DNA of 64,000 nt, from the NCBI GenBank assembly GCA_964016885.1, contig OZ024766.1, forward strand, positions 12,400,001-12,464,000, given 5' to 3'. Below the pieces are notes generated by a model. It was not told where the DNA came from. It saw only the letters and a program-made list of their open reading frames with translations, and did not search any database. The position numbers and the translations under genes are program-made. Below are positions 9,680 to 64,000 of this stretch, one piece after another (position 1 is the first letter of the stretch; the number at the start of each line of letters is the position of its first letter). This DNA is from Eledone cirrhosa. Lineage: Eukaryota.

Positions 9680-10400
9680 CTATTCTCCATCATGTGTAGA
9701 AGGGACCCTGTGTTGTGACCTGTCCAGTCTTTGATGTTGTCAGACCAGGATTTCATTGTCTACCTATTCTTTTACTATCCCCTGAACAATGGTTGCAAAA
9801 TAAAGATTTGTGGCTGAATATGTGACCATACCAAGCAAACTTCCATAAACTATCTTTATCCCATTAATTCTCCTCATTTAATAATCTTTCGTAGTGGAAC
9901 TTTCATGTTGCTTTCTTATCAGTGAGGACAAGTATGCCATTATTATCACAGACCCACTACTCCCCGATAATATCACAATATTCCTTGACACGCTGTTTGT
10001 AGCTGAATATATGACCATACCAGGCAAACTTCCATATTTTCCCCATCACAACGACAGGTTCTTGTCTCCCGGCATATTTGTTAACGCATTACCTGACAAA
10101 GCTGTTTGTTTTGTGTTGTGTGTATAAGGATGTGTTGCAACCTTCTGAAGGACTTGTGCTCTATGTAGATGTTTAACAGCCTTCTGAAAGACTTGTGCTC
10201 TGTGTAAGGGATATGTAGCAACCTTCTAAAGGACTTGTACTCTGTGTACAAGGATGTGTAGCAACCATCTGAAGGGCTTGTGCCCTGTTTGTAGATAAGG
10301 AGTTTTAGAACCCCATCACAACGAGTGGTTCCTGGCTCCCAGCATATTTGTTAACCTGACAAAGATGTTTGTTTTGTGCTGAGTGTACAAGGATGTGTTG
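9660..10400 (-). mobile_element. Degenerate RTE-clade LINE ORF C-terminal remnant with internal duplications
   Basis: Minus-strand peptides across frameshifts: QHKTNIFVR..NKYAGSQEPL, KFAWYGHI (twice), TIVQGIV, RIGRQ, KSWSDNIKDWTGHNTGSLLHMMENRD. These match the RTE pattern EHKTN..VR / KLxWFGHV / TILQG / GRQRKxWxDNIKEWTG. Confidence 0.85.
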
Positions 10401-19400: not shown

Positions 19401-22400
19401 ACTTGTGCCCTGTGTACGAGATGTTTAGTAACCTTCTGAAGGACTTGTGCCCTGTGTACGAGATGTTTAGTAACCTTCTGAAGGACTTGTGCCCTGTGTA
19501 CGAGATGTTTAGTAACCTTCTGAAGGACTTGTGCTCTGTGTACGAGATGTTTAGTAACCTTCTGAAGGACTTGTGCCCTGTGTACGAGATGTTTAGTAAC
19601 CTTCTGAAGGACTTGTGCCCTGTGTACGAGATGTTTAGTAACCTTCTGAAGGACTTGTGCTCTGTGTACGAGATGTTTAGTAACCTTCTGAAGGACTTGT
19701 GCCCTGTGTACGAGATGTTTAGTAACCTTCTGAAGGACTTGTGCCCTGTGTACGAGATGTTTAGTAACCTTCTGAAGGACTTGTGCCCTGTGTACGAGAT
19801 GTTTAGTAACCTTCTGAAGGACTTGTGCCCTGTGTACGAGATGTTTAGTAACCTTCTGAAGGACTTGTGCTCTGTGTACGAGATGTTTAGTAACCTTCTG
19901 AAGGACTTGTGCCCTGTGTACGAGATGTTTAGTAACCTTCTGAAGGACTTGTGCCCTGTGTACGAGATGTTTAGTAACCTTCTGAAGGACTTGTGCCCTG
20001 TGTACGAGATGTTTAGTAACCTTCTGAAGGACTTGTGCCCTGTGTACGAGATGTTTAGTAACCTTCTGAAGGACTTGTGCCCTGTGTACGAGATGTTTAG
20101 TAACCTTCTGAAGGACTTGTGCCCTGTGTACGAGATGTTTAGTAACCTTCTGAAGGACTTGTGCCCTGTGTACGAGATGTTTAGTAACCTTCTGAAGGAC
20201 TTGTGCCCTGTGTACGAGATGTTTAGTAACCTTCTGAAGGACTTGTGCCCTGTGTACGAGATGTTTAGTAACTTTCTGAAGGACTTGTGCCCTGTGTACG
20301 AGATGTTTAGTAACCTTCTGAAGGACTTGTGCCCTGTGTACGAGATGTTTAGTAACCTTCTGAAGGACTTGTGCCCTGTGTACGAGATGTTTAGTAACCT
20401 TCTGAAGGACTTGTGCTCTGTGTACGAGATGTTTAGTAACCTTCTGAAGGACTTGTGCCCTGTGTACGAGATGTTTAGTAACCTTCTGAAGGACTTGTGC
20501 CCTGTGTACGAGATGTTTAGTAACCTTCTGAAGGACTTGTGCTCTGTGTACGAGATGTTTAGTAACCTTCTGAAGGACTTGTGCCCTGTGTACGAGATGT
20601 TTAGTAACCTTCTGAAGGACTTGTGCCCTGTGTACGAGATGTTTAGTAACCTTCTGAAGGACTTGTGCCCTGTGTACGAGATGTTTAGTAACCTTCTGAA
20701 GGACTTGTGCCCTGTGTACGAGATGTTTAGTAACCTTCTGAAGGACTTGTGCTCTGTGTACGAGATGTTTAGTAACCTTCTGAAGGACTTGTGCCCTGTG
20801 TACGAGATGTTTAGTAACCTTCTGAAGGACTTGTGCCCTGTGTATGGGATATGTAGCAACCTTCTGAAGGACTTGTGCTCTGTGTACGGGATGTTTAGTA
20901 ACCTTCTGAAGGACTTGTGCCCTTTGTATGGGATATGTAGCAACCTTCTGAAGGACTTGTGCTCTGTGTACGAGATGTTTAGTAACCTTCTGAAGGACTT
21001 GTGCCCTGTGTACGAGATGTTTAGTAACCTTCTGAAGGACTTGTGCCCTGTGTACGAGATGTTTAGTAACCTTCTGAAGGACTTGTGCCCTGTGTACGAG
21101 ATGTTTAGTAACCTTCTGAAGGACTTGTGCCCTGTGTACGAGATGTTTAGTAACCTTCTGAAGGACTTGTGCCCTGTGTACGAGATGTTTAGTAACCTTC
21201 TGAAGGACTTGTGCCCTGTGTACGAGATGTTTAGTAACCTTCTGAAGGACTTGTGCCCTGTGTACGAGATGTTTAGTAACCTTCTGAAGGACTTGTGCCC
21301 TGTGTACGAAATGTTTAGTAACCTTCTGAAGGACTTGTGCCCTGTGTACGAGATGTTTAGTAACCTTCTGAAGGACTTGTGCCCTGTGTACGAGATGTTT
21401 AGTAACCTTCGGAAGGACTTGTGCCCTGTGTACGAAATGTTTAGTAACCTTCTGAAGGACTTGTGCTCTGTGTACGAGATGTTTAGTAACCTTCTGAAGG
21501 ACTTGTGCCCTGTGTACGAGATGTTTAGTAACCTTCTGAAGGACTTGTGCCCTGTGTACGAAATGTTTAGTAACCTTCTGAAGGACTTGTGCCCTGTGTA
21601 CGAGATGTTTAGTAACCTTCTGAAGGACTTGTGCCCTGTGTACGAGATGTTTAGTAACCTTCTGAAGGACTTGTGCCCTGCGTACGAAATGTTTAGTAAC
21701 CTTCTGAAGGACTTGTGCCCTGTGTACGAGATGTTTAGTAACCTTCTGAAGGACTTGTGCCCTGTGTACGAGATGTTTAGTAACCTTCTGAAGGACTTGT
21801 GCCCTGTGTACGAGATGTTTAGCAATCTTCTGAAGGACTTGTGCTCTGTGTACGAGATGTTTAGCAACCTTCTGAAGGACTTGTGCCCTGTGTACGAGAT
21901 GTTTAGTAACCTTCTGAAGGACTTGTGCCCTGTGTACGAGATGTTTAGCAACCTTCTGAAGGACTTGTGCTCTGTGTACGAGATGTTTAGCAACCTTCTG
22001 AAGGACTTGTGCCCTGTGTACGAGATGTTTAGTAACCTTCTGAAGGACTTGTGCCCTGTGTACGAGATGTTTAGTAACCTTCTGAAGGACTTGTGCCCTG
22101 TGTACGAGATGTTTAGTAACCTTCTGAAGGACTTGTGCTCTGTGTACGAGATGTTTAGTAACCTTCTGAAGGACTTGTGCCCTGTGTACGAGATGTTTAG
22201 TAACCTTCTGAAGGACTTGTGCTCTGTGTACGAGATGTTTAGTAACCTTCTGAAGGACTTGTGCTCTGTGTACGAGATGTTTAGTAACCTTCTGAAGGAC
22301 TTGTGCCCTGTGTACGAGATGTTTAGTAACCTTCTGAAGGACTTGTGCCCTGTGTACGAGATGTTTAGTAACCTTCTGAAGGACTTGTGCCCTGTGTACG

Positions 22401-23945
22401 AGATGTTTAGTAACCTTCTGAAGGACTTGTGCCCTGTGTACGAGATGTTTAGTAACCTTCTGAAGGACTTGTGCCCTGTGTACGAGATGTTTAGTAACCT
22501 TCTGAAGGACTTGTGCCCTGTGTACGAGATGTTTAGTAACCTTCTGAAGGACTTGTGCCCTGTGTACGAGATGTTTAGTAACCTTCTGAAGGACTTGTGC
22601 CCTGTGTACGAGATGTTTAGTAACCTTCTGAAGGACTTGTGCCCTGTGTACGAGATGTTTAGTAACCTTCTGAAGGACTTGTGCTCTGTGTACGAGATGT
22701 TTAGTAACCTTCTGAAGGACTTGTGCCTGTGTACGAGATGTTTAGTAACCTTCTGAAGGACTTGTGCCCTGTGTGCGAGATGTTTAGTAACCTTCTGAAG
22801 GACTTGTGCTCTGTGTACGAGATGTTTAGTAACCTTCTGAAGGACTTGTGCCCTGTGTACGAGATGTTTAGTAACCTTCTGAAGGACTTGTGCCCTGTGT
22901 ACGAGATGTTTAGTAACCTTCTGAAGGACTTGTGCCCTGTGTACGAGATGTTTAGTAACCTTCTGAAGGACTTGTGCCCTGTGTACGAGATGTTTAGTAA
23001 CCTTCTGAAGGACTTGTGCTCTGTTTACGAGATGTTTAGTAACCTTCTGAAGGACTTGTGCCCTGTGTACGAGATGTTTAGTAACCTTCTGAAGGACTTG
23101 TGCCCTGTGTATGGGATATGTAGCAACCTTCTGAAGGACTTGTGCTCTGTGTACGAGATGTTTAGTAACCTTCTGAAGGACTTGTGCCCTCTGTATGGGA
23201 TATGTAGCAACCTTCTGAAGGACTTGTGCTCTGTGTACGAGATGTTTAGTAACCTTCTGAAGGACTTGTGCCCTGTGTACGAGATGTTTAGTAACCTTCT
23301 GAAGGACTTGTGCTCTGTGTACGAGATGTTTAGTAACCTTCTGAAGGACTTGTGCCCTGTGTACGAGATGTTTAGTAACCTTCTGAAGGACTTGTGCCCT
23401 GTGTACGAGATGTTTAGTAACCTTCTGAAGGACTTGTGCTCTGTGTACGAGATGTTTAGTAACCTTCTGAAGGACTTGTGCCCTGTGTACGAGATGTTTA
23501 GTAACCTTCTGAAGGACTTGTGCCCTGTGTACGAGATGTTTAGTAACCTTCTGAAGGACTTGTGCCCTGTGTACGAGATGTTTAGTAACCTTCTGAAGGA
23601 CTTGTGCCCTGTGTACGAGATGTTTAGTAACCTTCTGAAGGACTTGTGCTCTGTGTACGAGATGTTTAGTAACCTTCTGAAGGACTTGTGCCCTGTGTAC
23701 GAGATGTTTAGTAACCTTCTGAAGGACTTGTGCCCTGTGTACGAGATGTTTAGTAACCTTCTGAAGGACTTGTGCCCTCTGTATGGGATATGTAGCAACC
23801 TTCTGAAGGACTTGTGCCCTGTGTACGAGATGTTTAGTAACCTTCTGAAGGACTTGTGCCCTCTGTATGGGATATGTAGCAACCTTCTGAAGGACTTGTG
23901 CCCTGTGTACGAAATGTTTAGTAACCTTCTGAAGGACTTGTGCTC
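10374..23945. repeat. 42-bp satellite (~320 copies, 13.6 kb; GTACGAGATGTTTAGTAACCTTCTGAAGGACTTGTGCCCTGT)
   Basis: 42-bp period, highly homogeneous; 1-bp deletions near 17944, 19116 and 22727; about four diverged units also at ~10125-10290. Confidence 0.99.
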
Positions 23946-24000
23946 AAATGACAGGATTCTTTGTTCCATGTCAGCTGCGAGAGTCCACCTCTCACACATG
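23938..24000 (-). mobile_element. RTE-clade LINE ORF segment leading into the 42-bp array
   Basis: Minus strand CERWTLAADMEQRILSFEHKSFRRLLNISYT matches RTE YGCExWTL...xRIxAFExKCxRxLLxISY. Confidence 0.85.
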
Positions 24001-24628: not shown

Positions 24629-24688
24629 TTGTATGTGCATATATTTTAATATATTTAATAGACTGTTTATATTATTAGATACTGCTCA

Positions 24689-24870
24689 GGGTGGATTGGC
24701 AGTATCGGTAGAAGGTCGGACGCCATGCTTTCCAGCATAGTTACGTCCCTTTACGATCTGAGTTCAGTTTCCGCCGAGGTTGACTTTGCCTTTCATCCTT
24801 ACGGGGTAGATAAAATAAAGTACCAGTAATACACTGGGTAATTGCTGGCCTTGTGCCAAAAGTAGAAACA
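24689..24870 (+). mobile_element. tRNA-derived SINE with Deu/Nin-like core, octopod-type, with 18-bp target-site duplication
   Basis: A-box-like TGGCAGTATCGG, B-box-like GAGTTCAGTTTCC, core GAGGTTGACTTTGCCTTTCATCCTTACGGGGTAGATAAAATAAAGTACCAG, tail CCTTGTGCCAAAAGTAGAAACA. Flanked by ATTATTAGATACTGCTCA at 24671-24688 and 24871-24888. Family assignment is from recalled similarity. Confidence 0.85.
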
Positions 24871-24959
24871 ATTATTAGATACTGCTCAATAAATATTTAT
24901 ATAATATCAATATCTTTTCATGACATTTTGTAAGATTTTCTATATTAAATATGTTTGAT

Positions 24960-27900
24960 TCTACCTGTAAATGTAAGACATACTCTACCTGTAAATGTAA
25001 GACATACTCTACCTGTAAATGTAAGACATACTCTACCTGTAAATGTAGGACATACTCTACCTGTAAATGTAAGACATACTCTACCTGTAAATATAAGACA
25101 TACTCTACCTGTAAGACATACTCTACCTGTAAATGTAAGACATACTCTACCTGTAAATATAAGACATACTCTACCTGTAAATGTAGGACATACTCTACCT
25201 GTAAATGTAAGACATACTCTACCTGTAAATATAAGACATACTCTACCTGTAAGACATACTCTACCTGTAAATGTAAGACATACTCTACCTGTAAATATAA
25301 GACATACTCTACCTGTAAATATAAGACATACTCTACCTGTAAATGTAAGACATACTCTACCTGTAAATGTAAGACATACTCTACCTGTAAATGTAAGACA
25401 TACTCTACCTGTAAATGTAAGACATACTCTACCTGTAAGACATACTCTACCTGTAAATATAAGACATACTCTACCTGTAAATATAAGACATACTCTACTT
25501 GTAAATATAAGACATACTCTACCTGTAAATATAAGACATACTCTACCTGTAAATATAAGACATACTCTACCTGTAAATGTAAGACATACTCTACCTGTAA
25601 ATATAAGACATACTCTACCTGTAAATATAAGACATACTCTACCTGTAAATGTAAGACATACTCTACCTGTAAATATAAGACATACTCTACCTGTAAATGT
25701 AAGACATACTCTACCTGTAAATGTAAGACATACTCTACCTGTAAATGTAAGACATACTCTACCTGTAAGACATACTCTACCTGTAAATATAAGACATACT
25801 CTACCTGTAAATATAAGACATACTCTACCTGTAAATGTAAGACATACTCTACCTGTAAATATAAGACATACTCTACCTGTAAATATAAGACATACTCTAC
25901 CTGTAAATATAAGACATACTCTACCTGTAAATGTAAGACATACTCTACCTGTAAATATAAGACATACTCTACCTGTAAATATAAGACATACTCTACCTGT
26001 AAATGTAAGACATACTCTACCTGTAAATGTAAGACATACTCTACCTGTAAATATAAGACATACTCTACCTGTAAATATAAGACATACTCTACCTGTAAAT
26101 GTAAGACATACTCTACCTGTAAATATAAGACATACTCTACCTGTAAATGTAAGACATACTCTACCTGTAAATATAAGACATACTCTACCTGTAAATGTAA
26201 GACATACTCTACCTGTAAATATAAGACATACTCTACCTGTAAATGTAAGACATACTCTACCTGTAAATATAAGACATACTCTACCTGTAAATGTAAGACA
26301 TACTCTACCTGTAAATATAAGACATACTCTACCTGTAAATGTAGGACATACTCTACCTGTAAATGTAAGACATACTCTACCTGTAAATATAAGACATACT
26401 CTACCTGTAAATGTAAGACATACTCTACCTGTAAATGTAGGACATACTCTACCTGTAAATATAAGACATACTCTACCTGTAAATGTAAGACATACTCTAC
26501 CTGTAAATGTAAGACATACTCTACCTGTAAATATAAGACATACTCTACCTGTAAATATAAGACATACTCTACCTGTAAATATAAGACATACTCTACCTGT
26601 AAATGTAAGACATACTCTACCTGTAAATGTAGGACATACTCTACCTGTAAATGTAAGACATACTCTACCTGTAAGACATACTCTACCTGTAAATATAAGA
26701 CATACTCTACCTGTAAATGTAAGACATACTCTACCTGTAAATATAAGACATACTCTACCTGTAAATATAAGACATACTCTACCTGTAAATGTAGGACATA
26801 CTCTACCTGTAAATATAAGACATACTCTACCTGTAAATGTAAGACATACTCTACCTGTAAATGTAAGACATACTCTACCTGTAAATATAAGACATACTCT
26901 ACCTGTAAATATAAGACATACTCTACCTGTAAATATAAGACATACTCTACCTGTAAATATAAGACATACTCTACCTGTAAATGTAAGACATACTCTACCT
27001 GTAAATATAAGACATACTCTACCTGTAAGACATACTCTACCTGTAAATATAAGACATACTCTACCTGTAAATATAAGACATACTCTACCTGTAAATATAA
27101 GACATACTCTACCTGTAAATATAAGACATACTCTACCTGTAAGACATACTCTACCTGTAAATATAAGACATACTCTACCTGTAAATATAAGACATACTCT
27201 ACCTGTAAATGTAAGACATACTCTACCTGTAAATATAAGACATACTCTACCTGTAAATATAAGACATACTCTACCTGTAAATGTAAGACATACTCTACCT
27301 GTAAATATAAGACATACTCTACCTGTAAATGTAAGACATACTCTACCTGTAAATGTAAGACATACTCTACCTGTAAGACATACTCTACCTGTAAATGTAA
27401 GACATACTCTACCTGTAAGACATACTCTACCTGTAAATATAAGACATACTCTACCTGTAAATATAAGACATACTCTACCTGTAAATATAAGACATACTCT
27501 ACCTGTAAATGTAAGACATACTCTACCTGTAAATATAAGACATACTCTACCTGTAAATATAAGACATACTCTACCTGTAAATGTAAGACATACTCTACCT
27601 GTAAATGTAAGACATACTCTACCTGTAAATATAAGACATACTCTACCTGTAAATATAAGACATACTCTACCTGTAAATGTAAGACATACTCTACCTGTAA
27701 ATATAAGACATACTCTACCTGTAAATATAAGACATACTCTACCTGTAAATGTAAGACATACTCTACCTGTAAATGTAAGACATACTCTACCTGTAAATAT
27801 AAGACATACTCTACCTGTAAATATAAGACATACTCTACCTGTAAATGTAAGACATACTCTACCTGTAAATATAAGACATACTCTACCTGTAAATGTAAGA

Positions 27901-30679
27901 CATACTCTACCTGTAAATATAAGACATACTCTACCTGTAAATGTAAGACATACTCTACCTGTAAATATAAGACATACTCTACCTGTAAATGTAGGACATA
28001 CTCTACCTGTAAATGTAAGACATACTCTACCTGTAAATGTAAGACATACTCTACCTGTAAATGTAAGACATACTCTACCTGTAAATATAAGACATACTCT
28101 ACCTGTAAATATAAGACATACTCTACCTGTAAATGTAAGACATACTCTACCTGTAAATATAAGACATACTCTACCTGTAAATGTAAGACATACTCTACCT
28201 GTAAATATAAGACATACTCTACCTGTAAATGTAAGACATACTCTACCTGTAAATGTAAGACATACTCTACCTGTAAATATAAGACATACTCTACCTGTAA
28301 ATGTAGGACATACTCTACCTGTAAATATAAGACATACTCTACCTGTAAATATAAGACATACTCTACCTGTAAATGTAAGACATACTCTACCTGTAAATAT
28401 AAGACATACTCTACCTGTAAATATAAGACATACTCTACCTGTAAATATAAGACATACTCTACCTGTAAATATAAGACATACTCTACCTGTAAATGTAAGA
28501 CATACTCTACCTGTAAATATAAGACATACTCTACCTGTAAATGTAGGACATACTCTACCTGTAAATATAAGACATACTCTACCTGTAAATATAAGACATA
28601 CTCTACCTGTAAATGTAAGACATACTCTACCTGTAAATATAAGACATACTCTACCTGTAAATGTAAGACATACTCTACCTGTAAATGTAAGACATACTCT
28701 ACCTGTAAATATAAGACATACTCTACCTGTAAATGTAAGACATACTCTACCTGTAAATATAAGACATACTCTACCTGTAAATGTAAGACATACTCTACCT
28801 GTAAATATAAGACATACTCTACCTGTAAATGTAGGACATACTCTACCTGTAAATATAAGACATACTCTACCTGTAAATATAAGACATACTCTACCTGTAA
28901 ATGTAAGACATACTCTACCTGTAAATATAAGACATACTCTACCTGTAAATGTAGGACATACTCTACCTGTAAATATAAGACATACTCTACCTGTAAATAT
29001 AAGACATACTCTACCTGTAAATGTAAGACATACTCTACCTGTAAATATAAGACATACTCTACCTGTAAATGTAAGACATACTCTACCTGTAAATATAAGA
29101 CATACTCTACCTGTAAATGTAAGACATACTCTACCTGTAAATATAAGACATACTCTACCTGTAAATATAAGACATACTCTACCTGTAAATATAAGACATA
29201 CTCTACCTGTAAATGTAAGACATACTCTACCTGTAAATATAAGACATACTCTACCTGTAAATGTAGGACATACTCTACCTGTAAATATAAGACATACTCT
29301 ACCTGTAAATATAAGACATACTCTACCTGTAAATGTAAGACATACTCTACCTGTAAATATAAGACATACTCTACCTGTAAATATAAGACATACTCTACCT
29401 GTAAATATAAGACATACTCTACCTGTAAATATAAGACATACTCTACCTGTAAATGTAAGACATACTCTACCTGTAAATATAAGACATACTCTACCTGTAA
29501 ATGTAAGACATACTCTACCTGTAAATGTAAGACATACTCTACCTGTAAGACATACTCTACCTGTAAATATAAGACATACTCTACCTGTAAATATAAGACA
29601 TACTCTACCTGTAAATATAAGACATACTCTACCTGTAAATGTAAGACATACTCTACCTGTAAATGTAAGACATACTCTACCTGTAAATGTAAGACAAACT
29701 CTACCTGTAAATGTAAGACATACTCTACCTGTAAGACATACTCTACCTGTAAATATAAGACATACTCTACCTGTAAATATAAGACATACTCTACCTGTAA
29801 ATATAAGACATACTCTACCTGTAAATGTAAGACATACTCTACCTGTAAATATAAGACATACTCTACCTGTAAATATAAGACATACTCTACCTGTAAATAT
29901 AAGACATACTCTACCTGTAAATATAAGACATACTCTACCTGTAAATATAAGACATACTCTACCTGTAAATATAAGACATACTCTACCTGTAAATATAAGA
30001 CATACTCTACCTGTAAATATAAGACATACTCTACCTGTAAATATAAGACATACTCTACCTGTAAATATAAGACATACTCTACCTGTAAATATAAGACATA
30101 CTCTACCTGTAAATATAAGACATACTCTACCTGTAAATGTAAGACATACTCTACCTGTAAATGTAAGACATACTCTACCTGTAAATATAAGACATACTCT
30201 ACCTGTAAATATAAGACATACTCTACCTGTAAATGTAAGACATACTCTACCTGTAAATATAAGACATACTCTACCTGTAAATGTAAGACATACTCTACCT
30301 GTAAATATAAGACATACTCTACCTGTAAATGTAAGACATACTCTACCTGTAAATATAAGACATACTCTACCTGTAAATATAAGACATACTCTACCTGTAA
30401 ATATAAGACATACTTTACCTGTAAATGTAAGACATACTCTACCTGTAAATATAAGACATACTCTACCTGTAAGACATACTCTACCTGTAAATATAAGACA
30501 TACTCTACCTGTAAGACATACTTTACCTGTAAATATAAGACATACTCTACCTGTAAATGTAAGACATACTCTACCTGTAAATGTAAGACATACTCTACCT
30601 GTAAATATAAGACATACTCTACCTGTAAATGTAAGACATACTCTACCTGTAAATGTAAGACATACTCTACCTGTAAATA
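24960..30679. repeat. 24-bp satellite (~240 copies, 5.7 kb; TCTACCTGTAAAT(A/G)TAAGACATAC) with 18-bp deletion variants
   Basis: 24-bp period; A/G dimorphism; AGG variant; recurrent 6-bp deletion giving CCTGTAAGAC. Confidence 0.99.
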
Positions 30680-30684
30680 ATTAA

Positions 30685-30785
30685 ATAGTTGGCTTTGTTG
30701 GAAAACTGATGGAGTTTCTTTTCCATAAGATATTCAGCTTTACTTTGGCAGAAGTGACCAGGGTGAGTCTTAGCAGTATCTCCTT
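30685..30785 (-). mobile_element. RTE-clade LINE ORF segment leading out of the 40-bp array
   Basis: Minus strand reads without interruption KEILLRLTLVTSAKVKLNILWKRNSISFPTK, matching the post-RT RTE pattern EIxxRIxxATSAMxKLxxIWKxxxISFxTK. Confidence 0.8.
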
Positions 30786-33700
30786 TGGCAGAAGTGACCA
30801 GAGTGAGTCTTAGCAGTATCTCCTTTGGCAGAAGTGACCAGGGTGAGTCTTAGCAGTATCTCCTTTGACAGAAGTGACCAGGGTGAGTCTTAGCAGTACC
30901 TCCTTTGGCAGAAGTGACCAGGGTGAGTCTTAGCAGTACCTCCTTTGGCAGAAGTGGCCAGGGTGAGTCTTAGCAGTATCTCCTTTGGCAGAAGTGACCA
31001 GGGTGAGTCTTAGCACTATCTCCTTTGGCAGAAGTGACCAGGGTGAGTCTTAGCAGTACCTCCTTTGGCAGAAGTGACCAGGGTGAGTCTTAGCAGTATC
31101 TCCTTTGGCAGAAGTGACCAGGGTGAGTCTTAGCAGTATCTCCTTTGGCAGAAGTGACCAGGGTGAGTCTTAGCAGTATCTTGGCAGAAGTGACCAGGGT
31201 GAGTCTTAGCAGTACCTCCTTTGACAGAAGTGACCAGGGTGAGTCTTAGCAGTATCTCCTTTGGCAGAAGTGACCAGGGTGAGTCTTAGCAGTACCTCCT
31301 TTGGCAGAAGTGACCAGGGTGAGTCTTAACAGTACCTCCTTTAGCAGAAGTGACCAGGGTGAGTCTTAGCAGTGTCTCCTTTGGCAGAAGTGACCAGGGT
31401 GAATCTTAGCAGTATCTCCTTTGGCAGAAGTGACCAGGGTGAGTCTTAGCAGTACCTCCTTTGGCAGAAGTGACCAGGGTGAGTCTTAGCAGTACCTCCT
31501 TTGGCAGAAGTGACCAGGGTGAGTCTTAGCAGTACCTCCTTTGGCAGAAGTGACCAGGGTGAGTCTTAGCAGTATCTCCTTTGACAGAAGTGACCAGGGT
31601 GAGTCTTAGCAGTACCTCCTATGGCAGAAGTGACCAGGGTGAGTCTTAGCAGTACCTCCTTTTGCAGAAGTGACCAAGTGAGTCTTAGCAGTACCTCCTT
31701 TGGCAGAAGTGACCAGGGTGAGTCTTAGCAGTACCTCCTTTGGCAGAAGTGACCAGGGTGAGTCTTAGCAGTATCTCCTTTGGCAGAAGTGACCAGGGTG
31801 AGTCTTAGCAGTATCTCCTTTGGCAGAAGTGACCAGGGTGAGTCTTAGCAGTATCTTGGCAGAAGTGACCAGGGTGAGTCTTAGCAGTACCTCCTTTGAC
31901 AGAAGTGACCAGGGTGAGTCTTAGCAGTATCTCCTTTGGCAGAAGTGACCAGGGTGAGTCTTAGCAGTACCTCCTTTGGCAGAAGTGACCAGGGTGAGTC
32001 TTAGCAGTACCTCATTTGGCAGAAGTGACCAGGGTGAGTCTTAGCAGTACCTCCTTTTGCAGAAGTGACCAGGGTGAGTCTTAGCAGTACCTCCTTTGGC
32101 AGAAGTGACCAGGGTGAGTCTTAGCAGTACCTCCTTTGGCAGAAGTGACCAGGGTGAGTCTTAGCAGTATCTCCTTTGACAGAAGTGACCAGGGTGAGTC
32201 TTAGCAGTACCTCCTTTGGCAGAAGTGACCAGGGTGAGTCTTAGCAGTACCTCCTTTGGCAGAAGTGACCAGGGTGAGTCTTAGCAGTACCTCCTTTTGC
32301 AGAAGTGACCAGGGTGAGTCTTAGCAGTACCTCCTTTGGCAGAAGTGACCAGGGTGAGTCTTAGCAGTATCTCCTTTGGCAGAAGTGACCAGGGTGAGTC
32401 TTAGCAGTATCTCCTTTGGCAGAAGTGACCAGGGTGAGTCTTAGCACTATCTCCTTTGGCAGAAGTGACCAGGGTGAGTCTTAGCAGTACCTCCTTTGGC
32501 AGAAGTGACCAGGGTGAGTCTTAGCAGTATCTCCTTTGGCAGAAGTGACCAGGGTGAGTCTTAGCAGTACCTCCTTTGGCAGAAGTCACCAGGGTGAGTC
32601 TTAGCAGTATCTCCTTTGGCAGAAGTGACCAGGGTGAGTCTTAGCACTATCTCGTTTGACAGAAGTGACCAGGGTGAGTCTTAGCAGTACCTCCTTTGGC
32701 AGAAGTCACCAGGGTGAGTCTTAGCAGTACCTCCTTTGGCAGAAGTGACCAGGGTGAGTCTTAGCAGTATCTCCTTTGGCAGAAGTGACCAGGGTGAGTC
32801 TTAGCAGTACCTCCTTTGGCAGAAGTGACCAGGGTGAGTCTTAGCAGTACCTCCTTTGGCAGAAGTGACCAGGGTGAGTCTTAGCAGTACCTCCTTTGGC
32901 AGAAGTGACCAGGGTGAGTCTTAGCAGTATCTCCTTTGACAGAAGTGACCAGGGTGAGTCTTAGCAGTACCTCCTTTGGCAGAAGTGACCAGGGTGAGTC
33001 TTAGCAGTACCTCCTTTGGCAGAAGTGACCAGGGTGAGTCTTAGCAGTATCTCCTTTGGCAGAAGTGACCAGGGTGAGTCTTAGCAGTACCTCCTTTGGC
33101 AGAAGTGACCAGGGTGAGTCTTAGCAGTATCTCCTTTGGCAGAAGTGACCAGGGTGAGTCTTAGCAGTATCTCCTTTGGCAGAAGTGACCAGGGTGAGTC
33201 TTAGCAGTATCTTGGCAGAAGTGACCAGGGTGAGTCTTAGCAGTACCTCCTTTGACAGAAGTGACCAGGGTGAGTCTTAGCAGTGTCTCCTTTGGCAGAA
33301 GTGACCAGGGTGAGTCTTAGCAGTACCTCCTTTGGCAGAAGTGACCAGGGTGAGTCTTAGCAGTATCTCCTTTGGCAGAAGTGACCAGGGTGAGTCTTAG
33401 CAGTATCTCCTTTGGCAGAAGTGACCAGGGTGAGTCTTAGCAGTACCTCCTTTGGCAGAAGTGACCAGGGTGAGTCTTAACAGTACCTCCTTTGGCAGAA
33501 GTGACCAGGGTGAGTCTTAGCAGTGTCTCCTTTGGCAGAAGTGACCAGGGTGAATCTTAGCAGTATCTCCTTTGGCAGAAGTGACCAGGGTGAGTCTTAG
33601 CAGTACCTCCTTTGGCAGAAGTGACCAGGGTGAGTCTTAGCAGTACCTCCTTTGGCAGAAGTGACCAGGGTGAGTCTTAGCAGTACCTCCTTTGGCAGAA

Positions 33701-36700
33701 GTGACCAGGGTGAGTCTTAGCAGTATCTCCTTTGACAGAAGTGACCAGGGTGAGTCTTAGCAGTACCTCCTTTGGCAGAAGTGACCAGGGTGAGTCTTAG
33801 CAGTACCTCATTTGGCAGAAGTGACCAGGGTGAGTCTTAGCAGTACCTCCTTTTGCAGAAGTGACCAGGGTGAGTCTTAGCAGTACCTCCTTTGGCAGAA
33901 GTGACCAGGGTGAGTCTTAGCAGTATCTCCTTTGGCAGAAGTGACCAGGGTGAGTCTTAGCAGTATCTCCTTTGGCAGAAGTGACCAGGGTGAGTCTTAG
34001 CAGTACCTCCTTTTGCAGAAGTGACCAGGGTGAGTCTTAGCAGTACCTCCTTTGGCAGAAGTGACCAGGGTGAGTCTTAGCAGTATCTCCTTTGGCAGAA
34101 GTGACCAGGGTGAGTCTTAGCAGTATCTCCTTTGGCAGAAGTGACCAGGGTGAGTCTTAGCACTATCTCCTTTGGCAGAAGTGACCAGGGTGAGTCTTAG
34201 CAGTACCTCCTTTGGCAGAAGTGACCAGGGTGAGTCTTAGCAGTATCTCCTTTGGCAGAAGTGACCAGGGTGAGTCTTAGCAGTACCTCCTTTGGCAGAA
34301 GTCACCAGGGTGAGTCTTAGCAGTATCTCCTTTGGCAGAAGTGACCAGGGTGAGTCTTAGCACTATCTCGTTTGACAGAAGTGACCAGGGTGAGTCTTAG
34401 CAGTACCTCCTTTGGCAGAAGTCACCAGGGTGAGTCTTAGCAGTACCTCCTTTGGCAGAAGTGACCAGGGTGAGTCTTAGCAGTATCTCCTTTGGCAGAA
34501 GTGACCAGGGTGAGTTTTAGCAGTACCTCCTTTGGCAGAAGTGACCAGGGTGAGTCTTAGCAGTACCTCCTTTGGCAGAAGTGACCAGGGTGAGTCTTAG
34601 CAGTACCTCCTTTGGCAGAAGTGACCAGGGTGAGTCTTAGCAGTATCTCCTTTGACAGAAGTGACCAGGGTGAGTCTTAGCAGTACCTCCTTTGGCAGAA
34701 GTGACCAGGGTGAGTCTTAGCAGTACCTCCTTTGGCAGAAGTGACCAGGGTGAGTCTTAGCAGTATCTCCTTTGGCAGAAGTGACCAGGGTGAGTCTTAG
34801 CAGTACCTCCTTTGGCAGAAGTGACCAGGGTGAGTCTTAGCAGTATCTCCTTTGGCAGAAGTGACCAGGGTGAGTCTTAGCAGTATCTCCTTTGGCAGAA
34901 GTGACCAGGGTGAGTCTTAGCAGTATCTTGGCAGAAGTGACCAGGGTGAGTCTTAGCAGTACCTCCTTTGACAGAAGTGACCAGGGTGAGTCTTAGCAGT
35001 GTCTCCTTTGGCAGAAGTGACCAGGGTGAGTCTTAGCAGTACCTCCTTTGGCAGAAGTGACCAGGGTGAGTCTTAGCAGTATCTCCTTTGGCAGAAGTGA
35101 CCAGGGTGAGTCTTAGCAGTATCTCCTTTGGCAGAAGTGACCAGGGTGAGTCTTAGCAGTACCTCCTTTGGCAGAAGTGACCAGGGTGAGTCTTAACAGT
35201 ACCTCCTTTGGCAGAAGTGACCAGGGTGAGTCTTAGCAGTGTCTCCTTTGGCAGAAGTGACCAGGGTGAATCTTAGCAGTATCTCCTTTGGCAGAAGTGA
35301 CCAGGGTGAGTCTTAGCAGTACCTCCTTTGGCAGAAGTGACCAGGGTGAGTCTTAGCAGTACCTCCTTTGGCAGAAGTGACCAGGGTGAGTCTTAGCAGT
35401 ACCTCCTTTGGCAGAAGTGACCAGGGTGAGTCTTAGCAGTATCTCCTTTGACAGAAGTGACCAGGGTGAGTCTTAGCAGTACCTCCTTTGGCAGAAGTGA
35501 CCAGGGTGAGACTTAGCAGTACCTCATTTGGCAGAAGTGACCAGGGTGAGTCTTAGCAGTACCTCCTTTTGCAGAAGTGACCAGGGTGAGTCTTAGCAGT
35601 ACCTCCTTTGGCAGAAGTGACCAGGGTGAGTCTTAGCAGTATCTCCTTTGGCAGAAGTGACCAGGGTGAGTCTTAGCAGTATCTCCTTTGGCAGAAGTGA
35701 CCAGGGTGAGTCTTAGCACTATCTCCTTTGGCAGAAGTGACCAGGGTGAGTCTTAGCAGTACCTCCTTTGGCAGAAGTGACCAGGGTGAGTCTTAGCAGT
35801 ATCTCCTTTGGCAGAAGTGACCAGGGTGAGTCTTAGCAGTACCTCCTTTGACAGAAGTGACCAGGGTGAGTCTTAGCACTATCTCCTTTGGCAGAAGTGA
35901 CCAGGGTGAGTCTTAGCAGTATCTCCTTTGGCAGAAGTGACCAGGGTGAGTCTTAGCAGTATCTCCTTTGGCAGAAGTGACCAGGGTGAGTCTTAGTAGT
36001 ACCTCCTTTGGCAGAAGTGACCAGGGTGAGTCTTAGTAGTACCTCATTTGGCAGAAGTGACCAGGGTGAGTCTTAGCACTATCTCCTTTGGCAGAAGTGA
36101 CCAGGGTGAGTCTTAGCAGTACCTCCTTTGACAGAAGTGACCAGGGTGAGTCTTAGCAGTACCTCCTTTGGCAGAAGTGACCAGGGTGAGTCTTAGCAGT
36201 ACCTCCTTTGGCAGAAGTGACCAGGGTGAGTCTTAGCAGTACCTCCTTTGGCAGAAGTGACCAGGGTGAGTCTTAGCAGTATCTCCTTTGGCAGAAGTGA
36301 CCAGGGTGAGTCTTAGCACTATCTCCTTTGGCAGAAGTGACCAGGGTGAGTCTTAGCAGTATCTCCTTTGGCAGAAGTGACCAGGGTGAGTCTTAGCAGT
36401 ACCTCCTTTGGCAGAAGTGACCAGGGTGAGTCTTAGCAGTACCTCCTTTGGCAGAAGTGACCAGGGTGAGTCTTAGTAGTACCTCCTTTGGCAGAAGTGA
36501 CCAGGGTGAGTCTTAGCAGTATCTCCTTTGGCAGAAGTGACCAGGGTGAGTCTTAGCAGTATCTCCTTTGGCAGAAGTGACCAGGGTGAGTCTTAGCAGT
36601 ACCTCCTTTGGCAGAAGTGACCAGGGTGAGTCTTAGCAGTACCTCCTTTGATAGAAGTGACCAGGGTGAGTCTTAGCAGTACCTCCTTTGACAGAAGTGA

Positions 36701-39700
36701 CCAGGGTGAGTTTTAGCAGTACCTCCTTTGACAGAAGTGACAAGGGTGAGTCTTAGCAGTATCTCCTTTGGCAGAAGTGACCAGGGTGAGTCTTAGCAGT
36801 ATCTCCTTTGGCAGAAGTGACCAGGGTGAGTCTTAGCAGTACCTCCTTTGGCAGAAGTGACCAGGGTGAGTCTTAGCAGTATCTCCTTTGGCAGAAGTGA
36901 CCAGGGTGAGTCTTAGCAGTATCTCCTTTGGCAGAAGTGACCAGGGTGAGTCTTAGCAGTACCTCCTTTGGCAGAAGTGACCAGGGTGAGTCTTAGCAGT
37001 ACCTCCTTTGATAGAAGTGACCAGGGTGAGTCTTAGCAGTACCTCCTTTGACAGAAGTGACCAGGGTGAGTCTTAGCAGTACCTCCTTTGACAGAAGTGA
37101 CCAGGGTGAGTCTTAGCATTATCTCCTTTGGCAGAAGTGACCAGGGTGAGTCTTAGCAGTATCTCCTTTGGCAGAAGTGACCAGGGTGAGTCTTAGCAGT
37201 ACCTCCTTTGGCAGAAGTGACCAGGGTGAGTCTTAGCAGTATCTCCTTTGTCAGAAGTGACCAGGGTGAGTCTTAGCAGTACCTCCTTTGGCAGAAGTGA
37301 CCAGGGTGAGTCTTAGCAGTATCTCCTTTGACAGAAGTGACCAGGGTGAGTCTTAGCAGTACCTCCTTTGGCAGAAGTGACCAGGGTGAGTCTTAGCAGT
37401 ACCTCCTTTGGCAGAAGTGACCAGGGTGAGTCTTAGCACTATCTCCTTTGGCAGAAGTGGCCAGGGTGAGTCTTAGTAGTACCTCCTTTGGCAGAAGTGA
37501 CCAGGGTGAGTCTTAGTAGTACCTCCTTTGGCAGAAGTGACCAGGGTGAGTCTTAGCAGTATCTCCTTTGGCAGAAGTGACCAGGGTGAGTCTTAGCAGT
37601 ATCTCCTTTGGCAGAAGTGACCAGGGTGAGTCTTAGCAGTATCTCCTTTGGCAGAAGTGACCAGGGTGAGTCTTAGCAGTATCTCCTTTGGCAGAAGTGA
37701 CCAGGGTGAGTCTTAGCAGTATCTCCTTTGGCAGAAGTGACCAGGGTGAGTCTTAGCAGTACCTCCTTTGGCAGAAGTGACCAGGGTGAGTCTTAGCAGT
37801 ATCTCCTTTGGCAGAAGTGACCAGGGTGAGTCTTAGCAGTATCTCCTTTGGCAGAAGTGACCAGGGTGAGTCTTAGCAGTACCTCCTTTGGCAGAAGTGA
37901 CCAGGGTGAGTCTTAGCAGTATCTTGGCAGAAGTGACCAGGGTGAGTCTTAGCAGTATCTTGGCAGAAGTGACCAGGGTGAGTCTTAGCAGTACCTCCTT
38001 TGGCAGAAGTGACCAGGGTGAGTCTTAGCAGTACCTCCTTTGACAGAAGTGACCAGGGTGAGTCTTAGCACTATCTCCTTTGGCAGAAGTGACCAGGGTG
38101 AGTCTTAGCAGTACCTCCTTTGGCAGAAGTGACCAGGGTGAGTCTTAGCACTATCTCCTTTGGCAGAAGTGACCAGGGTGAGTCTTAGCAGTATCTCCTT
38201 TTGCAGAAGTGACCAGGGTGAGTCTTAGCAGTACCTCCTTTGGCAGAAGTGACCAGGGTGAGTCTTAGCAGTACCTCCTTTGGCAGAAGTGACCAGGGTG
38301 AGTCTTAGCAGTACCTCCTTTGGCAGAAGTGACCAGGGTGAGTCTTAGCACTATCTCCTTTGGCAGAAGTGACCAGGGTGAGTCTTAGCAGTATCTCCTT
38401 TTGCAGAAGTGACCAGGGTGAGTCTTAGCAGTACCTCCTTTGGCAGAAGTGACCAGGGTGAGTCTTAGCAGTACCTCCTTTGGCAGAAGTGACCAGGGTG
38501 AGTCTTAGCACTATCTCCTTTGGCAGAAGTGACCAGGATGAGTCTTAGCAGTATCTCCTTTGGCAGAAGTGACCAGGGTGAGTCTTAGCAGTATCTCCTT
38601 TGGCAGAAGTGACCAGGGTGAGTCTTAGCAGTACCTCCTTTGGCAGAAGTGACCAGGGTGAGTCTTAGTAGTACCTCCTTTGGCAGAAGTGACCAGGGTG
38701 AGTCTTAGCAGTACCTCCTTTGACAGAAGTGACCAGGGTGAGTCTTAGCAGTACCTCCTTTGATAGAAGTGACCAGGGTGAGTCTTAGCAGTACCTCCTT
38801 TGACAGAAGTGACCAGGGTGCGTCTTAGCAGTACCTCCTTTGACAGAAGTGACCAGGGTGAGTCGTAGCAGTATCTCCTTTGGCAGAAGTGACCAGGGTG
38901 AGTCTTAGCAGTATCTCCTTTGGCAGAAGTGACCAGGGTGAGTCTTAGCAGTACCTCCTTTGGCAGAAGTGACCAGGGTGAGTCTTAGCAGTATCTCCTT
39001 TGGCAGAAGTGACCAGGGTGAGTCTTAGCAGTACCTCCTTTGGCAGAAGTGACCAGGGTGAGTCTTAGCAGTATCTCCTTTGACAGAAGTGACCAGGGTG
39101 AGTCTTAGCAGTATCTCTTTTGGCAGAAGTGACCAGGGTGAGTCTTAGCAGTATCTCCTTTGGCAGAAGTGACCAGGGTGAGTCTTAGCAGTATCTCCTT
39201 TGGCATAAGTGACCAGGGTGAGTCTTAGCAGTACCTCCTTTGGCAGAAGTGACCAGGGTGAGTCTTAGCAGTACCTCCTTTGGCAGAAGTGACCAGGGTG
39301 AGTCTTAGCACTATCTCCTTTGGCAGAAGTGACCAGGGTGAGTCTTAGTAGTACCTCCTTTGGCAGAAGTGACCAGGGTGAGTCTTAGTAGTACCTCCTT
39401 TGGCAGAAGTGACCAGGGTGAGTCTTAGCAGTATCTCCTTTGGCAGAAGTGACCAGGGTGAGTCTTAGCAGTATCTCCTTTGGCGGAAGTGACCAGGGTG
39501 AGTCTTAGCTGTATCTCCTTTGGCAGAAGTGACCAGGGTGAGTCTTAGCAGTATCTCCTTTGGCAGAAGTGACCAGGGTGAGTCTTAGCAGTATCTCCTT
39601 TGGCAGAAGTGACCAGGGTGAGTCTTAGCAGTACCTCCTTTGGCAGAAGTGACCAGGGTGAGTCTTAGCAGTATCTCCTTTGGCAGAAGTGACCAGGGTG

Positions 39701-42700
39701 AGTCTTAGCAGTATCTCCTTTGGCAGAAGTGACCAGGGTGAGTCTTAGCAGTACCTCCTTTGGCAGAAGTGACCAGGGTGAGTCTTAGCAGTATCTTGGC
39801 AGAAGTGACCAGGGTGAGTCTTAGCAGTATCTTGGCAGAAGTGACCAGGGTGAGTCTTAGCAGTACCTCCTTTGGCAGAAGTGACCAGGGTGAGTCTTAG
39901 CAGTATCTCCTTTGGCAGAAGTGACCAGGGTGAGTCTTAGCAGTATCTCCTTTGGCAGAAGTGACCAGGGTGAGTCTTAGCACTATCTCCTTTGGCAGAA
40001 GTGACCAGGGTGAGTCTTAGCAGTACCTCCTTTGGCAGAAGTGACCAGGGTGAGTCTTAGCAGTATCTCCTTTGGCAGAAGTGACCAGGGTGAGTCTTAG
40101 CACTATCTCCTTTGGCAGAAGTGACCAGGGTGAGTCTTAGTAGTACCTCCTTTGGCAGAAGTGACCAGGGTGAGTCTTAGTAGTACCTCCTTTGGCAGAA
40201 GTGACCAGGGTGAGTCTTAGCAGTATCTCCTTTGGCAAAAGTGACCAGGGTGAGTCTTAGTAGTACCTCCTTTGGCAGAAGTGACCAGGGTGAGTCTTAG
40301 CAGTATCTCCTTTGGCAGAAGTGACCAGGGTGAGTCTTAGTAGTACCTCCTTTGGCAGAAGTGACCAGGGTGAGTCTTAGCAGTATCTCCTTTGGCAGAA
40401 GTGACCAGGGTGAGTCTTAGCAGTATCTCCTTTGGCAGAAGTGACCAGGGTGAGTCTTAGCAGTATCTCCTTTGGCAGAAGTGACCAGGGTGAGTCTTAG
40501 CAGTATCTCCTTTGGCAGAAGTGACCAGGGTGAGTCTTAGCAGTATCTCCTTTGGCAGAAGTGACCAGGGTGAGTCTTAGCAGTATCTCCTTTGGCAGAA
40601 GTGACCAGGGTGAGTCTTAGCAGTATCTCCTTTGGCAGAAGTGACCAGGGTGAGTCTTAGCAGTATCTCCTTTGGCAGAAGTGACCAGTGTGAGTCTTAG
40701 CAGTATCTCCTTTGGCAGAAGTGACCAGCGTGAGTCTTAGCAGTATCTCCTTTGGCAGAAGTGACCAGGGTGAGTCTTAGCAGTACCTCCTTTGGCAGAA
40801 GTGACCAGGGTGAGTCTTAGCAGTATCTCCTTTGGCAGAAGTGACCAGGGTGAGTCTTAGCAGTATCTCCTTTGGCAGAAGTGACCAGGGTGAGTCTTAA
40901 CAGTATCTCCTTTGGCAGAAGTGACCAGGGTGAGTCTTAGCAGTATCTCCTTTGGCAGAAGTGACCAGGGTGAGTCTTAGCAGTATCTCCTTTGGCAGAA
41001 GTGACCAGGGTGAGTCTTAGCAGTATATCCTTTGGCAGAAGTGACCAGGGTGAGTCTTAGCAGTATCTCCTTTGGCAGAAGTGACCAGGGTGAGTCTTAG
41101 CAGTATCTCCTTTGGCAGAAGTGACCAGGGTGAGTCTTAGCAGTATCTCCTTTGGCAGAAGTGACCAGGGTGAGTCTTAGCAGTACCTCCTTTGGCAGAA
41201 GTGACCAGGGTGAGTCTTAGCAGTATCTCCTTTGGCAGAAGTGACCAGGGTGAGTCTTAGCAGTATCTCCTTTGGCAGAAGTGACCAGGGTGAGTCTTAG
41301 CAGTACCTCCTTTGGCAGAAGTGACCAGGGTGAGTCTTAGCAGTATCTTGGCAGAAGTGACCAGGGTGAGTCTTAGCAGTATCTTGGCAGAAGTGACCAG
41401 GGTGAGTCTTAGCAGTATCTCCTTTGGCAGAAGTGACCAGGGTGAGTCTTAGCAGTATCTCCTTTGGCAGAAGTGACCAGTGTGAGTCTTAGCAGTATCT
41501 CCTTTGGCAGAAGTGACCAGCGTGAGTCTTAGCAGTATCTCCTTTGGCAGAAGTGACCAGGGTGAGTCTTAGCAGTACCTCCTTTGGCAGAAGTGACCAG
41601 GGTGAGTCTTAGCAGTATCTCCTTTGGCAGAAGTGACCAGGGTGAGTCTTAGCAGTATCTCCTTTGGCAGAAGTGACCAGGGTGAGTCTTAACAGTATCT
41701 CCTTTGGCAGAAGTGACCAGGGTGAGTCTTAGCAGTATCTCCTTTGGCAGAAGTGACCAGGGTGAGTCTTAGCAGTATCTCCTTTGGCAGAAGTGACCAG
41801 GGTGAGTCTTAGCAGTATCTCCTTTGGCAGAAGTGACCAGGGTGAGTCTTAGCAGTATCTCCTTTGGCAGAAGTGACCAGGGTGAGTCTTAGCAGTATCT
41901 CCTTTGGCAGAAGTGACCAGGGTGAGTCTTAGCAGTATCTCCTTTGGCAGAAGTGACCAGGGTGAGTCTTAGCAGTACCTCCTTTGGCAGAAGTGACCAG
42001 GGTGAGTCTTAGCAGTATCTCCTTTGGCAGAAGTGACCAGGGTGAGTCTTAGCAGTATCTCCTTTGGCAGAAGTGACCAGGGTGAGTCTTAGCAGTACCT
42101 CCTTTGGCAGAAGTGACCAGGGTGAGTCTTAGCAGTATCTTGGCAGAAGTGACCAGGGTGAGTCTTAGCAGTATCTTGGCAGAAGTGACCAGGGTGAGTC
42201 TTAGCAGTACCTCCTTTGGCAGAAGTGACCAGGGTGAGTCTTAGCACTATCTCCTTTGGCAGAAGTGACCAGGGTGAGCCTTAGCAGTATCTCCTTTGGC
42301 AGAAGTGACCAGGGTGAGTCTTAGCAGTATCTCCTTTGGCAGAAGTGACCAGGGTGAGTCTTAGCAGTACCTCCTTTGGCAGAAGTGACCAGGGTGAGTC
42401 TTAGCAGTACCTCCTTTGACAGAAGTGACCAGGGTGAGTCGTAGCAGTATCTCCTTTGGCAGAAGTGACCAGGGTGAGTCTTAGCAGTATCTCCTTTGGC
42501 AGAAGTGACCAGGGTGAGTCTTAGCAGTACCTCCTTTGGCAGAAGTGACCAGGGTGAGTCTTAGCAGTATCTCCTTTGGCAGAAGTGACCAGGGTGAGTC
42601 TTAGCAGTACCTCCTTTGGCAGAAGTGACCAGGGTGAGTCTTAGCAGTATCTCCTTTGACAGAAGTGACCAGGGTGAGTCTTAGCAGTATCTCTTTTGGC

Positions 42701-63700: not shown

Positions 63701-64000
63701 CCAGGGTGAGTCTTAGCAGTACCTCCTTTGGCAGAAGTGACCAGGGTGAGTCTTAGCACTATCTCTTTTGGCAGAAGTGACCAGGGTGAGCCTTAGCAGT
63801 ATCTCCTTTGGCAGAAGTGACCAGGGTGAGTCTTAGCAGTACCTCCTTTGACAGAAGTGACCAGGGTGAGTCTTAGCACTATCTCCTTTGGCAGAAATGA
63901 CCAGGGTGAGTCTTAGCAGTACCTCCTTTGGCAGAAGTGACCAGGGTGAGTCTTAGCACTATCTCCTTTGGCAGAAGTGACCAGGGTGATTCTTAGCAGT
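30743..64000. repeat. 40-bp satellite (>830 copies, >33 kb, runs off window; TCCTTTGGCAGAAGTGACCAGGGTGAGTCTTAGCAGTA(T/C)C) with 36-bp deletion variants
   Basis: 40-bp period throughout; 4-bp deletion variant GTATCTTGGC; multi-kb higher-order duplications. Confidence 0.99.

What the first reader, a model, noticed from the sequence alone, without database searches (positions are those of the whole stretch)
30693..30790. The >33-kb 40-bp satellite continues in frame into single-copy RTE sequence
The terminal monomer and the unique flank form one 31-codon frame, KEILLRLTLVTSAKVKLNILWKRNSISFPTK. The six-frame track misses it because 40 is not divisible by 3 and the array has stops. This identifies the likely origin of the largest array and suggests CAAAG (xK-E and A-K codons) as the founding microhomology.
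Basis: partly seen in the sequence, partly recalled or inferred. Interest (0 to 1): 0.7.

Follow-up and report, generated by a model that had tools for sequence, protein, structure and literature searches.

The report
Giant satellite grown from retrotransposon fragment
A 40-base piece of a dead RTE-type retrotransposon was copied head-to-tail more than 830 times in place, a clear but familiar kind of example of how satellite DNA is born from transposable elements.

Summary
The peptide is real (minus strand, 30785-30693) and the RTE origin holds. Blind searches found nothing, but against RT-bearing relatives found through an independent motif it aligns gap-free just after the RT domain (65% identity at best; HMM without window sequences 14.6 bits, 0 of 2000 shuffles). 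Contigs of other family copies cross the flank/monomer border without gaps at 82-85% identity and continue into the native upstream coding sequence. Two claims fail. The flank is not single-copy. CAAAG is not a family repeat: upstream the family reads Q-K-E (four A), and the 'A-K' codon is A-M/I in every spanning contig (19, 18, 18). The shared junction is AAAG (4 nt), and whether it caused or followed the duplication is open. Beyond the finding: collinear pieces of the same RTE 3' end lie at 24.0, 10.4-10.0 and 9.8-9.6 kb; the 13.6-kb 42-bp array is also amplified RTE coding sequence, and a Helitron carries an in-frame 36-bp array. TE-derived minisatellites are well known; this is a large, well-resolved new member.

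The parts
30743..64000 (-). 40-bp tandem array, open at the window end; unit is a piece of RTE ORF coding sequence (sense = minus strand)
   Evidence: 835 monomers, 62 types, mean 1.9% from consensus, multi-kb internal duplications (40 of 40 monomer types identical at lag 60)
30743..30782 (-). terminal monomer, 13 codons in register with the flank
   Evidence: anchored score reached by 0 of 100,000 nucleotide shuffles, 0 of 10,066 real-DNA windows; family contigs span it gap-free
30783..30786 (-). AAAG at the monomer junction; last bases shared with the family's upstream sequence
   Evidence: family contigs align up to 30786 and then continue with in-frame upstream RTE codons
   Evidence: table 3; column 14; for positions
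30692..30742 (-). unamplified RTE flank (post-RT region, DUF6451-like in relatives)
30680..30691 (.). 12-bp spacer where homology to the family majority stops; also present in several contigs of organism H, absent from X1
   Evidence: depth table (46-48 in X17, 0 in X1) and record 9/17 (30681-30761, 10 differences, no gap)
24960..30679 (.). 24-bp array interrupting the RTE; unit not shown to be RTE-derived
   Evidence: (51 of 100 shuffles score as well)
24671..24888 (.). SINE-like insertion between 18-bp direct repeats, next to a (TA)n run at 24452-24627
   Evidence: (18-bp exact repeat); SINE identity recalled, not tested
23944..23997 (-). next RTE piece, 44 profile positions downstream of the first; runs in frame into the 42-bp array
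   Evidence: (52 bits)
10383..23943 (-). 42-bp array (323 copies), 14-codon in-frame piece of the same RTE region; ends share AGCACAA
   Evidence: 49 bits, 0 of 100 shuffled dimers
9997..10382 (-). RTE continuation with older, diverged local duplications (70-83% alike)
9680..9845 (-). RTE C-terminal piece
   Evidence: (72 bits for 9845-9632)
8350..9679 (.). 81-bp array in two inverted blocks with a palindromic centre near 8704-8717; at least partly from the RTE 3' end
   Evidence: one search hit extends 48 nt into the terminal unit; weak (3 of 100, on the opposite strand)
1794..3666 (+). 36-bp in-frame array inside a decayed Helitron Rep/helicase gene (about 230-5560)
   Evidence: (PF14214 E 2e-55, PF05970 E 3e-62)

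Best explanation
A dead copy of an RTE-clade LINE lay on the minus strand. A 40-nt stretch of its ORF just behind the RT domain was duplicated head-to-tail in place (inferred: slippage or end joining over at most 4 shared bases), and the dimer then grew by unequal exchange or repair synthesis to over 830 copies, latterly by duplicating blocks of 2-8 kb. The frame is a fossil of the element, not a gene: it stays open for 42 codons only. Shown: homology, register, family membership of the flank, block duplications. Inferred: in-place origin, the founding event, and that the four collinear pieces down to 9.6 kb are one element that also seeded the 42-bp and partly the 81-bp arrays. No function is implied; the array is most likely neutral heterochromatic DNA.
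For: Peptide at the orthologous site in 7 of 14 independently fetched loci over its full length, plus its C-terminal half in an eighth; 85 of 120 relatives match at E<0.01, best 65% without gaps; HMM of 10 non-window sequences 14.6 bits, 0 of 2000 shuffles; monomer alone at its expected columns beats 100,000 of 100,000 nucleotide shuffles and is the best of 80 rotations; contigs of two organisms span 30692-30786 without gaps at 82-85% and continue into in-frame upstream and downstream RTE codons; pieces map in order on one strand at profile positions 45-135, 180-274, 230-395, 358-580; array at summed depth 1260 and 687 in X17/X18 (one sample), 0 in X1, which has the RTE family; block duplications at lags 43-111 monomers.
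Against: All five blind searches of the peptide were negative or chance. Unanchored, the 40-bp unit is not distinguishable from shuffled dimers (22 of 100). No listed contig spans the window's own flank-array junction. The distal end is unseen. 44 profile positions between the first two pieces are missing and 6.7 kb of other DNA lies there. The 120 relatives were collected with an alignment that included window pieces, so only the A1 test is free of that bias. RTE clade was not tested by RT phylogeny.
Confidence: 0.88

Rival explanations
1. Founding event A: this copy first changed the Met codon to Lys, creating an AAAG...AAAG pair 40 nt apart, which then seeded the duplication.
For: One state explains both the internal junctions and the flank-side end; AAAG is exact on both sides; short flanking repeats are the standard model (PMC3389668, PMC6947457, passages).
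Against: Needs two adjacent substitutions (one if the copy had the Ile codon, 3 of 19 X17 contigs) in a copy that differs from the family majority at only 3 other positions of 30693-30756; none of 19, 18, 18 contigs has the Lys codon, including a copy that shares the unusual 30681-30691 spacer.
Confidence: 0.45
2. Founding event B: the duplication used 0-2 shared bases (an A), and later turnover overwrote the end of the terminal unit with the junction sequence, so the apparent microhomology is a product of the array.
For: The family has no AAAG at the 40-nt site; in human TE-derived repeats only 300 of 7,276 had flanking direct repeats (PMC3389668 passage); the Helitron 36-bp array here shows only a 2-nt overhang.
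Against: Needs a conversion tract that ends on a single shared G; the ends of the 42-bp array kept flank-like states that differ from its internal junction.
Confidence: 0.3
3. Founding event C: the family's own AAAG pair, 45 nt apart (K-E upstream, V-K downstream), gave a 45-bp unit; a 5-bp deletion at the junction made the 40-bp unit that took over.
For: Both AAAG are family majority states (loose end at 30786; no majority change at 30738-30742); the junction is deletion-prone, 44 of 835 monomers lack 4 bp there.
Against: No 45-bp monomer and no family-type Met junction among 835 monomers; still needs the terminal unit to be overwritten.
Confidence: 0.2
4. The array arose at another copy of the family and entered this locus by homologous recombination or circle re-integration.
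For: The family is abundant and the flank with its spacer occurs at several loci, so targets exist.
Against: Exact register with the flank; neighbouring arrays are also local sequence amplified in place; it would predict the family codon, not Lys, at the terminal unit.
Confidence: 0.08
5. Assembly artefact or chance juxtaposition of an unrelated satellite and an RTE fragment.
For: No listed contig spans the own junction; copy number in the runs cannot be read from depth.
Against: 62 monomer types with nested block structure; array words at high depth in public runs; family contigs cover monomer and flank as one gap-free stretch.
Confidence: 0.03

Closest known systems
TE-derived minisatellites of human (Alu-derived; Ahmed and Liang 2012, PMC3389668; Jurka and Gentles and Haber and Louis as cited there)
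   Same: 20-100 bp internal piece of a retroelement amplified locally, remains of the element left as flanks; short direct repeats proposed as seed.
   Different: Most human cases have two units; this array has over 830. Source is an RTE ORF, and the candidate seed is 4 nt and partly locus-derived.
LINE-ORF2-derived satellites (PROsat of Phodopus, Pvc20 of seal, chicken HinfI/CR1, cetacean common satellite; table in PMC9659126)
   Same: Satellite unit homologous to a LINE coding or 3' region.
   Different: There the link is similarity to a dispersed family; here the founding copy is still attached in register. That review does not mention RTE (0 occurrences).
SINE-derived satellites of squamates (PMC10702118)
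   Same: Internal pieces of a retroposon amplified to arrays of up to about 1000 units, more uniform when long.
   Different: SINE rather than LINE ORF; many loci per genome shown there, one locus examined here.
RTE clade non-LTR retrotransposons (PMC2887409; Malik and Eickbush 1998 recalled)
   Same: Post-RT motif series, ORF end about 39 residues after the last W motif, simple repeats right behind the stop in relatives.
   Different: Only about 540 nt of the 3' end are in the window, decayed and spread over 54 kb; RTE-associated repeats in that paper are 3'-tail microsatellites, not ORF-derived minisatellites.

Membership tests
RTE-clade non-LTR retrotransposon | non-LTR type reverse transcriptase upstream of this region | tested here: met
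   in relatives, not in the window: L011 and L008 hit RVT_1 (E 4e-40, 7e-42); best solved matches LINE-1 ORF2p and R2; family contigs continue from the monomer into RT-side codons
RTE-clade non-LTR retrotransposon | RT groups with RTE-1, BovB, JAM1 in a phylogeny | not tested
   no named RTE reference held as a usable sequence; by-eye likeness of the post-RT motif series to curated RTE proteins in PMC2887409 file 2 is a lead only
RTE-clade non-LTR retrotransposon | AP endonuclease at the N-terminus of a single ORF | not testable with these tools
   5' part is outside the window and outside the fetched loci; some relatives are named 'endonuclease-reverse transcriptase' by NCBI
RTE-clade non-LTR retrotransposon | ORF ends soon after the post-RT region, without a C-terminal zinc knuckle (typical, recalled) | tested here: met
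   84 of 120 relatives hold the last W motif; median 39 residues follow; 0 of 84 with a CCHC/CCHH-like pattern
RTE-clade non-LTR retrotransposon | short 3' UTR with simple repeats right after the stop (PMC2887409) | tested here: inconclusive
   seen by eye in several of 14 loci (e.g. L008, L010, L011, L012, L014); the window copy's end is lost in the 81-bp array
TE-derived minisatellite/satellite | unit homologous to an internal part of a TE family | tested here: met
TE-derived minisatellite/satellite | array sits in register within the source element | tested here: inconclusive
   met on the proximal side; distal side outside the window, no genome held
Haber-Louis origin (unit flanked by 5-10 bp direct repeats) | 5-10 bp direct repeat present in the pre-duplication sequence | tested here: not met
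   against the family majority the overlap is AAAG (4 nt) at most and the downstream copy is absent; the locus's own ancestral state was not available. The 42-bp array does show a 7-nt repeat
Helitron (neighbour) | Rep and Pif1 helicase domains | tested here: met
   PF14214 and PF05970 above cut-off

The most novel reading that the evidence does not exclude
This lineage, or this chromosomal domain, has a strongly raised rate of birth and runaway growth of 24-81 bp minisatellites from arbitrary local sequence: one 540-nt LINE remnant seeded two or three independent arrays (48 kb or more) and a neighbouring Helitron another, so that 89% of the window is young tandem DNA. If genome-wide, it would be a distinct route to genome expansion and a natural series of thousands of array births with known ancestral sequence, allowing a direct test of how much microhomology a founding duplication needs and whether 'founding' repeats are created afterwards by array turnover.
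Probability: 0.2. Interest if true: 0.6.

Novelty: new member of a known kind. Interest (0 to 1): 0.3.

Why it matters
It fixes the origin of a very large array to the base and shows a trap: the neat direct repeat at an array end need not be in the ancestral element, so microhomology read from the array alone can mislead. For annotation, 48 kb masked as anonymous tandem repeat is LINE-derived. The general process is known, so the value is as a well-resolved case, and as a pointer to a genome where such births may be unusually dense.

Tried and rejected
Blind searches with the 31/42-residue peptide: word-index search, 4 candidates, none at E<=10; Pfam, 0 families for 8 window pieces; Atlas, no usable hit; PDB, 0; phmmer over 1.84 billion proteins, 1 hit, P0001, a repetitive protein matched on a six-residue word, rejected as chance. 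Search with the 23.9-kb piece: 95 candidates, none scored. Motif scan of viral contigs: 0. A protein-coding or RNA role: frame closes after 42 codons; Rfam 0 matches in 5500-31500; no unusual DNA folding of unit or junction (z 1.0, 1.6, 0.1). RTE origin of the 24-, 36- and 37-bp units: not supported (51, 86, 71 of 100 shuffles as good). One monomer at 31620 has the family-like Ile base; one singleton among 62 types, given no weight. X21 (reduced representation) gave 11 reads and no array coverage, uninformative. The piece at 8180-8350 looked like another RTE end by recall but neither profile found it. Earlier findings of the scan: none. Literature: ten searches listed no paper on a satellite from an RTE ORF; only listings were seen for most, so this is weak. 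Motif search of PMC9115989 supplements found nothing, with files 5-8 of 8 not searched.

Full report
Observation. The window is eukaryotic repeat DNA: seven tandem arrays cover 57,027 of 64,000 bases. The 40-bp array starts at 30743 and leaves the window (33,258 bp). Thirteen codons come from the terminal monomer, 17 from the flank, and the first Lys from the junction with the next monomer. No genome is held, so the far end could not be read.

Blind searches. The peptide alone finds nothing: searches were empty and the one phmmer hit among 1.84 billion proteins is a chance match to a repetitive protein.

Independent reference. Other minus-strand pieces of the window (9.7-10.0 kb) hold two Trp motifs. 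A DNA pattern made from them, with no part of the peptide, gave 0 viral, 1 genome and 13 metagenome loci. The two long ones scanned carry RVT_1, and all three scanned give a sub-threshold DUF6451 match where the peptide aligns; the nearest solved relatives are LINE-1 ORF2p and R2. The peptide aligns over 30 residues at the orthologous site in 7 of the 14 loci, and over its C-terminal half in an eighth; the rest do not reach or have lost that region. An HMM of 10 pieces from these loci scores the peptide at 14.6 bits, reached by 0 of 2000 shuffles. A later search gave 120 relatives (its query included window pieces): 85 match at E<0.01, the best at 65% without gaps. The monomer part alone, scored at the columns fixed by the flank, is reached by 0 of 100,000 nucleotide shuffles, 0 of 10,066 real windows and 4 of 100,000 residue shuffles, and is the best of 80 rotations. 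Without that anchor it is not significant (22 of 100 shuffled dimers).

DNA evidence. Four of 23 listed runs were laid on 30672-30808 at 80%; X17 and X18 are one sample of organism H, X21 has the same species label, X1 is another organism. 66, 60, 11 and 42 records were laid. Listed contigs cross flank and monomer from 30692 to 30783-30786 with 14-17 differences and no gap. Beyond 30786 the loose ends of 6 and 5 contigs (X17, X18) read in frame as S-T-L-T-K-D-G-R-S-Q, then K-E, matching the protein family upstream; the consensus of 4 X1 contigs reads alike with three codon differences. Before 30692 they continue as L-K-L-Y-K-S-L-V. So the monomer is an internal piece of this family. The flank is not single-copy (summed depth about 800, single contigs 4-24). 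Array words have summed depth 1260 and 687 in X17 and X18 and 0 in X1, so the array is real in H and not seen in A; depth is no copy number, contigs show presence rather than absence, and no listed record spans the window's own junction.

Microhomology. Upstream the family has CAA AAG GAG: the overlap with the array junction is AAAG, the base before it is A. Downstream, all contigs covering 30745 differ from the window (19, 18, 18; 4 of 4 reads) and most differ at 30744 (16, 14, 17): the family codon is Met or Ile, as in proteins (M in 88 of 115). The window differs from the family majority at only three other positions in 30693-30756 (no rows are listed beyond 30756). CAAAG is therefore not a repeat of the element. 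Three routes remain: prior change of this codon giving a 4-nt seed (0.45), a near-blunt duplication with later overwriting of the terminal unit (0.3), or a 45-bp unit from the family's own AAAG pair shortened by 5 bp (0.2; no 45-mer among 835 monomers, but 44 lack 4 bp at that junction). These weights are judgement, not computed.

Growth. Monomers differ 1.9% from consensus; blocks recur at lags of 43, 60, 72, 83, 90 and 111 monomers, one with 40 of 40 types identical. This fits stepwise growth by unequal exchange or repair synthesis, still recent. No unusual folding, no Rfam match in 5500-31500.

Wider anatomy. Protein and DNA profiles place RTE pieces in order on the minus strand: positions 45-135 at 30783-30693, 180-274 at 23997-23903, 230-395 at 10419-9997 (with older duplications), 358-580 at 9845-9632. 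The 42-bp array (13.6 kb) is a 14-codon piece of the same region (49 bits, 0 of 100 shuffles) and its ends share 7 nt. The 81-bp array begins within the last hit, but its unit test is weak. The 24-bp array, a SINE-like insert and a (TA)n run fill the 6.7 kb where 44 profile positions are missing; the 24-bp unit is not shown to be RTE. One element split by its own expansions is the simplest reading, but several H contigs share the 30681-30691 spacer, one at 88% identity without the array, so this break is old and the segment has paralogs. A Helitron at the left end carries an in-frame 36-bp array.

Comparison. Seen as passages: PMC3389668 (23% of human minisatellites TE-derived; 300 of 7,276 with flanking direct repeats), PMC6947457, PMC9659126 (LINE-ORF2-derived satellites, no mention of RTE), PMC10702118, PMC2887409 (RTE features, and curated RTE proteins in supplement file 2 with the same post-RT motif series by eye), PMC10294476, PMC9115989 (four supplements not searched), PMC13282606 (first third and passages; supplement listed, not read). 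The clade call RTE rests on these features and on recall, not on a tree. The host looks like an octopod from the SINE-like insert; this is recalled and untested, though named relatives are mostly from molluscs. Ten searches listed no report of an RTE-ORF-derived satellite, a weak negative.

Verdict. It is a new, large and unusually legible member of a known kind. Interest 0.3.

Noticed in passing
window 10383-23943: 42-bp array is an in-frame 14-codon RTE piece, giving stop-free frames of up to 1617 codons; older diverged duplicates of the same unit lie at 10000-10380.
   Followed up: yes
window 8350-9679: 81-bp array in two opposite blocks around a 14-bp palindrome (fold-back); the unit shows RTE C-terminus-like words on both strands.
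   Followed up: partly
window 1794-3666: 36-bp array in frame inside a Helitron Rep/helicase gene; removing all but one unit restores a continuous frame; 2-nt overhang only.
   Followed up: partly
window 6997-8105: 37-bp array bounded on both sides by a near-identical 17-bp word ending in (TA)n, at what looks by recall like the 3' end of a non-autonomous Helitron-type element (about 5930-7000).
   Followed up: no
window 30680-30691: Spacer could be RTE sequence with two single-base losses; it is shared by several contigs of organism H, one 984-bp contig lacking the array, and absent from X1.
   Followed up: partly
window 24274-24327 and 23981-24034: 54-bp direct repeat (94% alike) of the RTE piece, about 290 bp apart.
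   Followed up: no
window 24671-24888: SINE-like insert with an 18-bp target duplication; resembles an octopus repeat by recall only.
   Followed up: partly
window 8180-8350: Possible 3' end of a second LINE family with an (ATG)n tail on the minus strand; not detected by either profile.
   Followed up: partly
L001:1-260: A contig filed as a bacterial MAG holds an RTE-like LINE end followed by (TA)n, most likely host contamination.
   Followed up: no
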